From a virus: a DNA stretch of 37,954 nt. The DNA is taken from UHGV virus genome UHGV-0114795. One strand, given 5' to 3'. A program made the position numbers and the translations under genes. Below are positions 34,686-36,362 of the stretch, one piece after another. The notes beneath the pieces are model-generated. The model saw only the letters and a list, made by a program, of their open reading frames with translations, was not told the origin of the DNA and did not search any database. Numbering within the stretch: the stretch's first letter is position 1; each line of letters starts with the position of its first letter.

Positions 34686-34997
34686 ATGATGATTCTGACT
34701 CTGAATGATAAGCGTGAAATATCGCAAATAATCGCAAGTTTTACTGATGAAGATTACGAGCGAATCAACAGTGAAGTTGATCGCCTCTGCAAACGTTGCG
34801 ACCCAATAAGCGAAATGCTTCGCTCATATAAACCAGATGAACACACTAAGGACGCTATCGACTGGCTGGAAGATGATGACTGTAACTATCAGGAAAAAGC
34901 CGCTGAATGGTTCTGGGATGCAATAACCGAAAGAGTTAAGGCTGAATATGCCTTCGCAATATTCAAACGCAGACACATTTTTGGAGAAGCTGCATGA
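34686..34997 (+). CDS. Hypothetical protein (103 aa)
   Basis: GGAGAAA SD; acidic; ATGA overlap with recT start; function unknown. Confidence 0.5.
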   Translation: MMILTLNDKREISQIIASFTDEDYERINSEVDRLCKRCDPISEMLRSYKPDEHTKDAIDWLEDDDCNYQEKAAEWFWDAITERVKAEYAFAIFKRRHIFGEAA

Positions 34998-35896
34998 GCA
35001 ATATCGTTGAATTCGTTAAACAGCAGGAGCAGTTATTCTGCGGAGCATTGACTGAACAGACGGTGACATGGGCTAAGGAAAGCCAGTTTGCAATTCAGTA
35101 TTTCCAGAAAAACGATTACCTGGCTAAAACAGCACTGGCAAATCCAACCAGCGCACAGAACGCCATCATCAATGTTGCGGCGATCGGCATCACCTTAAAC
35201 CCGGCCAGCAAACTGGCTTATCTGGTTCCTCGCGACGGCATGGTGTGCCTTGATATCAGTTACATGGGATTACTTCATCTTGCGCAATCGACAGGATCAA
35301 TTAAGTGGGGGCAATGCAAACTGGTGTACTCAAACGACACCTATGAATCAAATGGCCTTGATTCAGCACCAACCCACAAATACAACGCATTTGGTGAGCG
35401 AGGCTCTATTGTTGGAGGTTATTGCACGGTTAAAACAGCAGATGGTGACTACCTGACTGAAGAAATGAGTCTGGCAGAAATTAAAGCTGTGGAAGCAACG
35501 AGCAAGGCAAAGAATGGACCGTGGAAAACATTCTGGGAAGAGATGGCGCGTAAAACAATAGTTAAACGCGCCAGCAAATACTGGCCTAAAGCCCAGCGAC
35601 TGGATAATGCCATTCACCTGCTTAACGAAGATGAAGGTATGCATCAGGAACCAGTTATGCCGCACAAATCAGAGGAAGATATCCGCGAAGATGAACGGAA
35701 ACGCCAGCAGGAAATAATGGATAAAGCACAACTTCTTTGCGATGAAATGGCTCAGGCAGAAAACATGGATGATTTGAAGCGATATTTTGCAGAAGCATAT
35801 CGCCTGACAGCTGGAATGAAATTGCAGCAGAACGTACAAGCCATTTACGCAGAATGCAAAGCGAAACTGGAGGTTGCCAGTGAGCAAACTGTATGA
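34994..35896 (+). CDS. recT: RecT-family single-strand annealing protein
   Basis: 300 aa; motif NGPWKTFWEEMARKTIVKRASKYWP resembles RecT NGPWVTHWEEMAKKTAIRRLFKYLP. Confidence 0.75.
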   Translation: MSNIVEFVKQQEQLFCGALTEQTVTWAKESQFAIQYFQKNDYLAKTALANPTSAQNAIINVAAIGITLNPASKLAYLVPRDGMVCLDISYMGLLHLAQSTGSIKWGQCKLVYSNDTYESNGLDSAPTHKYNAFGERGSIVGGYCTVKTADGDYLTEEMSLAEIKAVEATSKAKNGPWKTFWEEMARKTIVKRASKYWPKAQRLDNAIHLLNEDEGMHQEPVMPHKSEEDIREDERKRQQEIMDKAQLLCDEMAQAENMDDLKRYFAEAYRLTAGMKLQQNVQAIYAECKAKLEVASEQTV

Positions 35897-36362
35897 AATT
35901 GCCAATGAATACGCAAAATTGATGGATTCAGATTTAGAGCCAGAGATGATTGCTGACACAATAGAAGGCATGGAAGGAGAATTTACCGATAAAATAGAGC
36001 AACTTCTTGCCATTATTAAAAATGAATCTGGTTATGCTGAACGCCTCAAGGAAGAGGCAAGGTCGCTGAATGAGCGAGCCGCAGTAATTCAAAATAAGAT
36101 TGACAGCATTATGGCGTATATAGCGTCATCGCTTGAAATGGTTGGCAAGAAAAAGATTCGAGCAGGTATTCACCAGGTAACAATCCGCAAACCGTCAGAA
36201 ATTGTAGAAATAATCGACTCAAGCGCCCTTCCTCCTGAATACGTTGAGTTTGAAACGACAATTAAAGCCGACAAACTGGCAATCAAACACCAACTAAAAG
36301 CAGGAATAAATATCCCCGGCGCTCAACTCAAAGTTGGGAAACCTTCACTTCTTATCAAATAA
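35880..36362 (+). CDS. Gp157-like protein (putative recombination accessory / host nuclease inhibitor)
   Basis: Assignment from memory of Siphovirus Gp157 family and its usual position next to annealing proteins; GTG start at 35880 with GGAGG 6 nt upstream. Uncertain. Confidence 0.45.
   Translation: MSKLYEIANEYAKLMDSDLEPEMIADTIEGMEGEFTDKIEQLLAIIKNESGYAERLKEEARSLNERAAVIQNKIDSIMAYIASSLEMVGKKKIRAGIHQVTIRKPSEIVEIIDSSALPPEYVEFETTIKADKLAIKHQLKAGINIPGAQLKVGKPSLLIK

What the first reader, a model, noticed from the sequence alone, without database searches (positions are those of the whole stretch)
34686..36362. RecT-family annealing protein without an obvious partner exonuclease; flanked by an acidic 103-aa protein and a Gp157-like protein
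RecT-type annealases are usually paired with a RecE/lambda-Exo-type exonuclease. Here the neighbours are a small acidic protein upstream (ATGA-coupled) and a Gp157-like protein downstream, with no exonuclease-sized ORF in the visible early region. Either the exonuclease lies beyond the window, the system uses host nucleases, or one of the small neighbours is a nuclease modulator (for example a RecBCD inhibitor).
Basis: partly seen in the sequence, partly recalled or inferred. Interest (0 to 1): 0.4.

Follow-up and report, generated by a model that had tools for sequence, protein, structure and literature searches.

The report
Exonuclease-less RecT recombination module in prophage
This prophage carries a known type of phage recombination gene cluster (a RecT DNA-annealing protein with two small partner proteins but no nuclease of its own), and comparison with relatives suggests that the two partners fill the places that the nuclease inhibitor Gam and the exonuclease hold in phage lambda.

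Summary
Window 34686-36362 holds three overlapping genes in the early-left (pL) operon of a P22-like lambdoid prophage of E. coli: an acidic 103-aa protein, a 300-aa RecT-family annealase, and a 160-aa Siphovirus Gp157-family protein. No exonuclease lies in the window.

The module is about 95% identical to that of phage HK140. The complete HK140 genome has no Rec-module exonuclease. None of 102 related loci has a lambda Exo or RecE homologue.

This type is already published. Zheng et al. 2025 (PMC12315714) cite HK140 as a RecT-type annealase working with no phage nuclease and a 'MuGam' anti-RecBCD protein, and 84 of 246 lambdoid Rec modules lack a nuclease.

Three inferences are new here:
- The 103-aa family always sits in lambda's gam slot (cIII-kil-X-annealase). 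There it alternates, mutually exclusively, with lambda Gam or phi80 GamL, and it shows weak in-register similarity to lambda Gam.
- Gp157 and YqaJ-type exonucleases alternate in the slot after the annealase.
- The RecT C-terminal 85 residues track Gp157 rather than the annealase core.

Likely mechanism: Gam-like inhibitor, RecT, and an end-binding partner that docks RecT, with resection left to the host. This is an ordinary member of a known kind that yields testable leads.

The parts
34434..34604 (+). cIII gene. It marks the upstream border of the recombination block, as in lambda and P22.
   Evidence: phrog_550 'CIII anti-termination', E 1e-22. Its stop overlaps the next ORF by 4 nt.
34601..34708 (+). 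35-aa ORF in the kil/arf position. It overlaps cIII (-4 nt) and the 103-aa ORF (-20 nt). It is possibly an Arf-like remnant; its function is unknown.
   Evidence: phrog_17766 E 5e-16, and the N-terminal 20 residues match phrog_2123. It shares the motif (W/F)SDEEFI with P22 Arf, at E 0.008 in a small database. It is conserved in 77 of 102 related loci.
34686..34997 (+). Acidic, all-helical protein of 102/103 aa (phrog_3486). It sits in the slot that gam holds in lambda and is a candidate Gam-like inhibitor of a host nuclease.
   Evidence: - Composition and model: pI 4.65. The AF2 model is five helices, pLDDT 76.
- No Pfam or NCBIfam family matches.
- The family reaches 25% identity.
- In 106 sequences (105 related loci plus the window) the slot before the annealase holds this family (85) or lambda Gam/GamL (11), never both as separate genes.
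- Nine distant members all lie just upstream of the recombination genes, six times with a YqaJ or DUF3799 exonuclease.
- The family HMM scores lambda-Gam-type proteins at 10-20.5 bits in register, above at least 99.75% of shuffles. hhalign gives E 7e-4, probability 26%.
34994..35638 (+). RecT annealase core (residues 1-215): the ssDNA-annealing domain.
   Evidence: PF03837 covers residues 31-214. TIGR00616 and RecT structure 7UB2 also match. The core is 72% identical to phiON-2011 RecT, which is followed by a YqaJ exonuclease.
35639..35896 (+). RecT C-terminal domain (residues 216-300): inferred partner-docking domain that co-varies with Gp157.
   Evidence: - Homologous (39-98% identity) in every Gp157-linked RecT tested.
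- Undetectable in exonuclease-linked RecTs whose core identity is equal: phiON-2011 against HK639, and L124 against L126.
- Present on the Erf-family annealase of Pantoea phage PdC23, which also has Gp157.
- The analogy is the Redbeta CTD binding lambda Exo and SSB (PMC11611040).
35880..36362 (+). Siphovirus Gp157-family protein (160 aa). The literature classes it as Mu Gam-like end protection. It occupies the slot that exo holds in lambda.
   Evidence: - PF05565 124.9 bits; sub-threshold PF07352 Mu Gam, E 0.006, 17 bits.
- phrog_253 'Mu Gam-like end protection', E 7e-53.
- AF2 model: long helix plus a C-terminal beta-beta-beta-alpha-beta-beta unit, pLDDT 80.
- RecT lies directly upstream in 100 of 102 loci.
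- It alternates with YqaJ after the annealase.
- No acidic catalytic residues are conserved across diverse members.
36374..36688 (+). 104-aa helix-turn-helix protein that follows Gp157. It belongs to the same PHROG as P22 Abc1 and Mu gp9. It is a possible accessory member of the module.
   Evidence: phrog_323 E 7e-20. P22 Abc1 matches phrog_323 at E 1.3e-23. Mu gp9, the gene just before Mu gam, matches at E 5e-29. Pairwise E is 5e-5 to Mu gp9, with no pairwise hit to Abc1. It is present in 87 of 102 loci.

Best explanation
**What it is.** The locus is the recombination (Rec) module of the early-left operon of a P22-like lambdoid prophage. It is of the type already described for phage HK140.

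**Shown:**
- A translationally coupled block: cIII, 35-aa ORF, 103-aa acidic protein, RecT, Gp157, and an HTH protein.
- No dedicated exonuclease, either here or in relatives.

**Inferred:** the block has the same three slots as lambda gam-bet-exo.
- Slot 1, the 103-aa protein, is a Gam-like factor that neutralises a host nuclease. That nuclease is most likely RecBCD.
- Slot 2 is the RecT annealase.
- Slot 3, Gp157, replaces Exo. It is probably a Mu Gam/Ku-like dimer that binds double-strand DNA ends. It shields the ends and recruits RecT through RecT's C-terminal 85 residues.

The 5'-to-3' resection that makes the single strand for RecT would then be left to host enzymes such as RecJ with RecQ, or to single-stranded DNA at replication forks.
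For: **Identity with the HK140 module.**
- DNA identity is 94.9%, and the gene order is the same.
- Zheng et al. 2025 state that this RecT type (SAP-4) works in HK140 with no phage nuclease, no SSB and a MuGam anti-RecBCD protein. They also report that 84 of 246 modules lack a nuclease.

**No exonuclease.**
- No lambda Exo or RecE homologue in 102 loci.
- No nuclease domain in the window's pL operon ORFs that were scanned, nor in its nin region.
- The window has zero Chi sites, as that paper reports for phages that carry anti-RecBCD functions.

**Slot 1.**
- The 103-aa family (85 loci) and Gam/GamL (11 loci) are mutually exclusive directly upstream of near-identical RecT genes.
- Distant family members sit in cIII-(kil)-X-annealase-YqaJ operons.
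- Sequence similarity to lambda Gam is weak but in register.

**Slot 3.**
- Gp157 and YqaJ/DUF3799 never co-occur in these modules.
- phiON-2011 has GamL-RecT-YqaJ with a RecT core 72% identical to the window's.

**Docking through the C-terminal domain.** The RecT C-terminal domain follows Gp157 across RecT cores of 60-98% identity and even onto an Erf core. The Redbeta CTD is known to bind lambda Exo and SSB.

**Gp157 as a general annealase partner.** It lies next to Sak4, Erf and RecT genes in Klebsiella, Staphylococcus, Clostridium and Streptococcus phages, and PMC8093625 describes the same pattern.
Against: **No biochemistry exists for either small protein.**

**The Gp157 to Mu Gam link is weak.**
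- The Pfam hit is below its cut-off (17 against 28.3 bits).
- hhalign probability is 2-3%.
- Mu Gam falls in a different PHROG.

**The 103-aa to lambda Gam link is weak.**
- It rests on 10-20 bit scores.
- No Pfam or NCBIfam Gam hit.
- Gam did not appear in the PDB sequence or fold searches.

**The covariation has another possible cause.** The C-terminal domain and gp157 are physically adjacent. They could therefore travel together in mosaic exchange without any interaction.

**Exceptions.**
- One Gp157-linked annealase (L123) has no detectable shared C-terminal domain.
- In Vibrio phage D288 a Gp157-like gene follows a gene annotated as an exonuclease.
Confidence: 0.6

Rival explanations
1. 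Gp157 is simply the module's anti-RecBCD protein, as catalogued by Zheng et al. The 103-aa protein is an unrelated small early gene or a RecT accessory in the manner of P22 Arf. The covariation of the C-terminal domain is only physical linkage.
For: - The published classification of HK140 is SAP-4 plus MuGam.
- phrog_253 is annotated 'Mu Gam-like end protection'.
- There is a sub-threshold Mu Gam Pfam hit in 5 of 15 diverse members.
- The recT 3' end overlaps gp157, so both move as one DNA block.
- P22 has a small accessory gene, arf, directly upstream of erf.
Against: - Eleven sibling modules, and HK639, carry a bona fide Gam or GamL together with Gp157. If Gp157 only inhibited RecBCD, this would be redundant.
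- The 103-aa family also precedes annealase-YqaJ pairs that have no Gp157, so it is not tied to Gp157.
- It never co-occurs with Gam or GamL.
Confidence: 0.25
2. Gp157 is itself a non-canonical nuclease that supplies the resection, so it is the missing exonuclease.
For: - It occupies the slot that YqaJ exonucleases hold in sister operons.
- The AF2 model has a C-terminal beta-beta-beta-alpha-beta unit after a long helix.
- Weak Foldseek BFVD matches (E 0.04-2.6) go to proteins labelled PD-(D/E)XK, exonuclease or RecB-like.
Against: - An alignment of Gp157 members from Proteobacteria and Firmicutes has no invariant acidic or lysine residues in that unit. Only L4, Y5, P118, G142, G147 and I159 are invariant.
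- No nuclease family hit appears in Pfam or NCBIfam.
- The only family-level similarity is to Mu Gam. From general knowledge, Mu Gam binds DNA ends and has no nuclease activity.
Confidence: 0.07
3. The partner exonuclease exists but lies beyond the right end of the window.
For: The window ends inside the early-left operon: a partial ORF runs off the end. About 2-4 kb of prophage is unseen.
Against: - Complete HK140 and the JX2 prophage show only ea-type, DUF551, HNH and xis/int genes there.
- No Exo or RecE homologue occurs in 102 loci.
- Recurrent downstream ORFs have no nuclease domains.
- In relatives that do have an exonuclease, it is adjacent to recT and not kilobases away.
Confidence: 0.04
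4. The module is a decaying remnant, or RecT works alone on single-stranded DNA at replication forks, and the neighbours are irrelevant.
For: - Annealases alone suffice for oligonucleotide recombineering (PMC8093625; PMC3945230).
- Zheng et al. caution that one- or two-gene modules are 'somewhat suspect'.
Against: - All three ORFs are intact, overlapping and conserved from 25-60% to 99% identity across many genera.
- The module occurs in viable phages: HK140, mEpX1, Kapi1, Louie and Dewey.
Confidence: 0.04

Closest known systems
Phage HK140-type Rec module (SAP-4 + MuGam, no nuclease, no SSB) of Zheng, Casjens, Davidson, Amundsen & Smith 2025 (PMC12315714)
   Same: The genes, their order and their position in the early-left operon are the same. 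DNA identity is 94.9% overall. The Gp157 and 103-aa proteins are 99% identical and RecT is 88% identical.
   Different: The virion and other modules differ: the window is a P22-like podovirus-type prophage at tRNA-Arg. The published catalogue does not, in the text held, count the 103-aa gene as part of the module.
Lambda Red system (cIII-kil-gam-bet-exo)
   Same: The operon position and the three-slot layout are the same, and the genes are tightly coupled. The annealase belongs to the RecT/Redbeta superfamily. An acidic helical protein of about 100 aa lies upstream. The annealase has a C-terminal partner domain.
   Different: Slot 3 holds Gp157 rather than the YqaJ-family Exo. Slot 1 is not a recognisable Gam by Pfam or NCBIfam. 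No phage-encoded resection activity is present.
phi80 / phiON-2011 type module (GamL-RecT-YqaJ exonuclease)
   Same: The RecT core is 72% identical, and there is a small protein in slot 1.
   Different: That module has a true exonuclease (PF09588) and a non-homologous RecT C-terminal domain.
P22 arf-erf-abc1-abc2
   Same: It is also an exonuclease-less module that pairs an annealase with anti-RecBCD functions. A small gene lies upstream of the annealase. An HTH protein of the same PHROG (phrog_323) as the window's 104-aa protein is present.
   Different: The annealase family differs (Erf). Abc2 is absent here. There is no pairwise similarity between Abc1 and the 104-aa protein.
Mu Gam (PF07352), a Ku-like protein that binds double-strand DNA ends
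   Same: Size is similar and the alignment is collinear. The motif G-x5-R-x-PS-x2-I-x3-D and the C-terminal G...I are shared. It neighbours a phrog_323 HTH gene.
   Different: The similarity is below family thresholds, and Mu Gam falls in a different PHROG and Pfam family. Mu Gam is not coupled to an annealase.
Gp157/Gam-like genes next to erf-ssb or sak4 in Firmicutes phages (PMC8093625)
   Same: The same protein family is adjacent to an annealase in modules without an exonuclease.
   Different: In those phages the gene usually precedes the annealase and an SSB gene follows. Here it follows RecT and no SSB gene is present.

Membership tests
RecT/Redbeta annealases (PF03837, TIGR00616) | Score above the curated family cut-offs | tested here: met
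   PF03837 115.7 bits against 24. TIGR00616 76.8 bits against 52.65.
RecT/Redbeta annealases (PF03837, TIGR00616) | Sequence relation to a structurally solved RecT | tested here: met
   7UB2 (RecT), E 7e-5 over residues 34-204.
RecT/Redbeta annealases (PF03837, TIGR00616) | ssDNA annealing activity | not testable with these tools
   This needs biochemistry.
Exonuclease-annealase two-component recombinase (Red, RecET) | An adjacent 5'-3' exonuclease gene (YqaJ, RecE or DUF3799) | tested here: not met
   None in the window, and no lambda Exo or RecE homologue in 102 related loci.
HK140-type lambdoid Rec module (Zheng et al. 2025) | SAP-4 RecT plus a MuGam-type gene in the early-left operon, with no nuclease and no SSB | tested here: met
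   Position between cIII and the ea genes. 88-99% protein identity to the HK140 genes. No SSB or nuclease domain in the operon ORFs.
Siphovirus Gp157 (PF05565) | Score above the gathering cut-off over the full length | tested here: met
   124.9 bits against 28.6, covering profile positions 1-162 of 162.
Mu Gam (PF07352), for Gp157 | Score above the gathering cut-off | tested here: not met
   17 bits against 28.3. 5 of 15 diverse members give sub-threshold hits, best E 0.0012.
Mu Gam (PF07352), for Gp157 | Profile-profile or fold similarity to Mu Gam or Ku | tested here: inconclusive
Mu Gam (PF07352), for Gp157 | Binding to double-strand DNA ends and protection from RecBCD | not testable with these tools
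   This needs EMSA and nuclease-protection assays.
Lambda Gam / phi80 GamL, for the 103-aa protein | Match to a curated family model (Pfam Gam, NCBIfam NF033500) | tested here: not met
   No Gam or GamL family for the window protein or for any of 35 family members.
Lambda Gam / phi80 GamL, for the 103-aa protein | Detectable remote sequence similarity | tested here: inconclusive
   The family HMM scores five lambda-Gam-type proteins at 10.3-20.5 bits, and 0-5 of 2000 shuffles reach each score. hhalign gives E 7e-4, probability 26%. There was no hit to Gam chains in the PDB sequence or fold searches.
Lambda Gam / phi80 GamL, for the 103-aa protein | Genomic slot between cIII/kil and the annealase; about 100 aa, acidic, helical | tested here: met
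   One relative lies in cIII-Kil-X-annealase-YqaJ.
Lambda Gam / phi80 GamL, for the 103-aa protein | Inhibition of RecBCD | not testable with these tools
   This needs a T4 gene 2 mutant plating assay or an in vitro RecBCD assay.
P22 Abc1, for the 104-aa protein at 36374-36688 | Sequence relation to Abc1 | tested here: inconclusive
   Both match phrog_323, but over profile regions that only partly overlap. There is no pairwise BLASTP hit.

The most novel reading that the evidence does not exclude
Two linked readings:

1. The 103-aa family (phrog_3486) is an unrecognised, highly diverged Gam-type inhibitor of RecBCD or another host nuclease. It would be a further anti-RecBCD type in lambdoid Rec modules.

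2. Gp157 is not merely an anti-RecBCD protein. It is the functional replacement of the exonuclease partner: a DNA-end-binding protein that docks the annealase through a portable C-terminal domain of about 85 residues shared by RecT- and Erf-type annealases.

If both hold, 'nuclease-less' HK140-type modules are complete three-part Red-like machines that outsource only the resection step.
Probability: 0.35. Interest if true: 0.55.

Novelty: new member of a known kind. Interest (0 to 1): 0.35.

Why it matters
The locus itself is an ordinary example of a published class. It does not overturn the rule that annealases need single-stranded DNA made by some nuclease.

Its value lies in the comparative pattern it opens up.
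- Natural slot swaps (Gam, GamL or the 103-aa protein before the annealase; YqaJ or Gp157 after it) and a portable annealase C-terminal domain give concrete, cheap experiments on how phages recombine without their own exonuclease.
- They also give a test of what the very widespread Gp157 family does. It occurs in 572 phage records.
- If the 103-aa protein inhibits RecBCD, or if Gp157 loads RecT at DNA ends, both would be useful parts for dsDNA recombineering.
- Such results would also refine the published catalogue of lambdoid Rec modules.

Tried and rejected
- **Foldseek of the 103-aa model against PDB.** No match with E below 2.
- **Homologue search with Mu Gam.** The listed hits were all at least 72% identical, so the Mu Gam profile stayed shallow and hhalign remained weak.
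- **phmmer and hmmsearch of the 103-aa and Gp157 proteins and profiles against PDB sequences.** Nothing significant.
- **An apparent 448-aa fusion of the 103-aa protein with RecT in L097.** It is an artefact of a masked run of N translated as X. Rejected.
- **P22 Abc1 as a homologue of the 104-aa protein.** The shared PHROG is not backed by pairwise similarity. Kept only as a lead.
- **PD-(D/E)XK nuclease reading of Gp157.** Rejected as the main model because no catalytic residues are conserved.
- **Supplementary tables of Zheng et al.** Not held, so their treatment of HK140 gp42 could not be checked.
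Full report
**Setting**

The window is a P22-like lambdoid prophage of E. coli.
- The left end carries a formate/nitrite-transporter-family gene (1-933), tRNA-Arg(CCT) (1009-1083) and a complete tyrosine integrase (1209-2402). A P22-type tailspike follows, and the virion genes lie on the minus strand.
- The immunity region has a CII-like gene, a Cro-like HTH gene and an S24-peptidase repressor at 31.2-32.6 kb.
- The early-left operon runs on the plus strand: N (33119-33445), ral (33524-33724), two small acidic ORFs, cIII (34434-34604), a 35-aa ORF, the three genes of the finding, an HTH protein, DUF5405, Ead/Ea22 and a partial ORF at the window end.

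**Observation**

All three ORFs exist at the stated coordinates.
- The 103-aa product is acidic (pI 4.65, net -9), and its stop overlaps the recT start as ATGA.
- The 300-aa product is a RecT-family protein by Pfam, NCBIfam, PHROGs and similarity to the solved Listeria RecT.
- The downstream product is a full-length Siphovirus Gp157 family member.
- From cIII to gp157, five genes overlap one another (-4, -20, -4, -17 nt), each with a Shine-Dalgarno-like sequence.
- No ORF in the operon that was scanned carries a nuclease domain. The nin region has only NinB/Orf and NinG/Rap.

**Is an exonuclease hiding beyond the window?**

Very probably not.
- The module is 94.9% identical in DNA to that of phage HK140. 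It recurs in mEpX1, Kapi1, Louie, Dewey, Gally and many E. coli prophages.
- In the complete HK140 genome, the stretch from N to int holds ral, cIII, the 103-aa homologue, RecT, Gp157, the HTH protein, DUF5405, DUF2737, ea-type genes, a DUF551 protein, xis and int. No exonuclease is among them. The JX2 prophage is the same apart from an HNH insertion.
- tblastn with lambda Exo and Rac RecE against 102 loci that encode Gp157 relatives (80 viral contigs, 20 species-representative genomes, HK140 and JX2; flanks of up to 6-8 kb) found no hit. RecT was found in 100 of them.
- Ten recurrent or sizeable downstream ORF clusters have no nuclease Pfam domain.

**What is already known**

Zheng, Casjens, Davidson, Amundsen and Smith (Genome Res 2025, PMC12315714) catalogued the Rec modules of 325 lambdoid phages.
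- They name HK140 as the example in which annealase sequence type 4 works with no phage SSB, no phage nuclease and a 'MuGam' anti-RecBCD protein.
- 84 of 246 modules lack a nuclease.
- The functional class 'anti-RecBCD + annealase only' has 46 members, with P22 as prototype.
- Phages with anti-RecBCD genes mostly lack Chi sites. The window has no Chi site on either strand.
- For Firmicutes phages, PMC8093625 noted Mu gam-like, sipho_gp157, DUF1351 and DUF2483 genes beside erf-ssb and sak4.

**The 103-aa protein**

It has no Pfam or NCBIfam family and belongs to phrog_3486.
- A word-indexed search found only close relatives. A profile search of 1.84 billion representatives found 53 proteins, nearly all about 100 aa. 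A 35-member alignment reaches 25% identity.
- The AF2 model is five helices (pLDDT 76) with no significant PDB fold match.

The informative evidence is positional.
- In 106 sequences (105 related loci plus the window), the slot directly upstream of the annealase holds this family in 85. It holds a lambda-Gam-type or phi80-GamL-type protein in 11. The two are never present as separate genes.
- The occupants were checked by eye, and GamL was confirmed by NCBIfam (135 bits).
- The swaps occur next to RecT cores about 90% identical to the window's.
- Nine distant family members were traced to their contigs. Five lie in X-annealase-YqaJ operons, one in X-DUF3799-RecT and three in X-annealase-Gp157. 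One sits in cIII-Kil-X-annealase-YqaJ, which is the exact lambda order cIII-kil-gam-bet-exo.

There is also a weak sequence signal.
- The family HMM aligns to lambda-Gam-type proteins in register, around DDDV(D/E)FQE(R/K)xAE. Scores are 10.3-20.5 bits, and 0-5 of 2000 composition-preserving shuffles reach each score.
- In the reverse direction, 10 of 35 family members exceed the 99th percentile of shuffles.
- hhalign gives E 7e-4 at 26% probability.
- Against homology: no curated Gam model matches any member, and Gam chains did not surface in the PDB searches.

I conclude that the protein is the positional equivalent of Gam and a plausible, unproven, Gam-like nuclease inhibitor.

**Gp157**

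- The AF2 model (pLDDT 80) has a 67-residue helix followed by a beta-beta-beta-alpha-beta-beta unit.
- Similarity to Mu Gam is consistent but sub-threshold. PF07352 scores 17 bits here, and 5 of 15 diverse members give E down to 0.0012. hhalign is in register with low probability. The motif G-x5-R-x-PS-x2-I-x3-D is shared.
- Mu Gam itself falls in phrog_491, not phrog_253.
- Fold searches were uninformative.
- An alignment across Proteobacteria and Firmicutes has no conserved acidic or lysine residues in the C-terminal unit. This argues against a PD-(D/E)XK nuclease.
- Context: RecT is directly upstream in 100 of 102 loci. Elsewhere the family adjoins Sak4, Erf or other annealase-like genes.
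- In sister operons the slot after the annealase holds a YqaJ exonuclease instead. Gp157 and an exonuclease did not co-occur in these RecT modules. A Vibrio phage with an annotated exonuclease next to a Gp157-like gene is an exception outside this group.

**RecT C-terminal domain**

Many relatives share only residues 1-215. RecT was therefore split into a core (1-215) and a C-terminal domain (216-300).

| RecT (locus) | Gene after the annealase | Core identity to window | C-terminal domain |
|---|---|---|---|
| HK639 | Gp157 | 72.6% | 47.6% identical |
| phiON-2011 | YqaJ | 72.1% | none detected |
| L126 | Gp157 | 60% | 39% identical |
| L124 | YqaJ | 54% | none detected |

- Every Gp157-linked RecT keeps a homologous C-terminal domain (39-98%), whereas exonuclease-linked RecTs with equally similar cores do not.
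- Pantoea phage PdC23 has an ERF-superfamily annealase (PF04404). Its tail is 59% identical to window RecT residues 248-293. It is preceded by a 103-aa family member and followed, after an HNH insertion, by Gp157.
- The Redbeta C-terminal domain binds lambda Exo and SSB (PMC11611040). The simplest reading is that this domain docks Gp157.
- Caveat: the domain and gp157 are adjacent on the DNA, so co-inheritance alone could produce the pattern. One Gp157-linked annealase (L123) shows no such domain.

**Mechanism proposed**

Shown: the gene content, the coupling, the absence of an exonuclease, the slot alternations and the domain covariation.

Inferred:
- The 103-aa protein neutralises RecBCD or another host nuclease.
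- Gp157 binds and shields DNA ends and recruits RecT through RecT's C-terminal domain.
- Host enzymes resect the ends, or replication-fork single strands are used.
- The HTH protein at 36374-36688 may be an accessory. It shares phrog_323 with Mu gp9, the gene just upstream of Mu gam, and with P22 Abc1. There is no pairwise similarity to Abc1.

**Verdict**

The locus is a new member of a known kind. Interest is modest and rests on testable hypotheses about two uncharacterised but widespread small proteins.

Noticed in passing
window 34601-34708 (+): A 35-aa ORF overlaps both cIII (ATGA) and the 103-aa ORF. It shares the motif (W/F)SDEEFI with the N-terminus of P22 Arf, the Erf cofactor, and matches phrog_17766 and phrog_2123. 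It is conserved in 77 of 102 related loci. One database protein (P0025) is a fusion of this ORF's N-terminus to the C-terminal half of the 103-aa protein.
   Followed up: partly
window 36374-36688 (+); Mu L104:5482-5781; P22 L106:5971-6255: The HTH protein just after Gp157 belongs to phrog_323. So do Mu gp9, the gene just before Mu gam, and P22 Abc1, the gene next to abc2. An HTH gene of this kind therefore accompanies the end-protection or anti-RecBCD gene in three otherwise different phages.
   Followed up: partly
window 1-2402: A formate/nitrite-transporter-family gene, tRNA-Arg(CCT) at 1009-1083 and a complete integrase at 1209-2402 lie directly next to the tailspike gene. In this prophage int sits at the tailspike end, which implies that attP lies between xis and int. 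Only a few kb of prophage can lie beyond the right end of the window.
   Followed up: partly
whole window: There is no Chi site (GCTGGTGG) on either strand in 37,954 bases. This fits the reported lack of Chi in lambdoid phages that encode anti-RecBCD functions. It is not significant against a random-sequence expectation of about one.
   Followed up: partly
window 30391-30502, inside the O-like replication gene 29982-30929 (-): 12-bp tandem repeats (TGTGCGGCTTCA-like; 2.7 and 3.8 copies) encode an Ala/His-rich stretch of the replication protein. They are probably origin iterons, as in lambda O.
   Followed up: no
L108 (Pantoea phage PdC23) 3147-3611; L085 7537-8004: In two unrelated hosts an ORF of about 155 aa is inserted exactly between the annealase gene and gp157. 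The PdC23 one is annotated as an HNH endonuclease. The L085 one was judged only by eye.
   Followed up: no
Gp157 model m2bd22b1daa0a against BFVD: Weak Foldseek matches (E 0.04-2.6) link the Gp157 model to viral proteins of about 280-400 aa labelled PD-(D/E)XK endonuclease-like, exonuclease, COG5377 or RecB-like. It is unclear whether those proteins carry a fused Gp157-like domain.
   Followed up: no
L118/L119 4306-4629 and 2043-2366; L124 1918-2409: A PF27050 (Phage_P22_Y8K6) gene is inserted between a 103-aa family member and RecT in one metagenomic phage. In another it lies further upstream. Its function is unknown.
   Followed up: no
window 5080-6024 (-) and 22377-22919 (-): There is a Bro-N/P22_AR_C antirepressor-type gene near the tailspike and a Rha-family regulator gene within the late region.
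   Followed up: no
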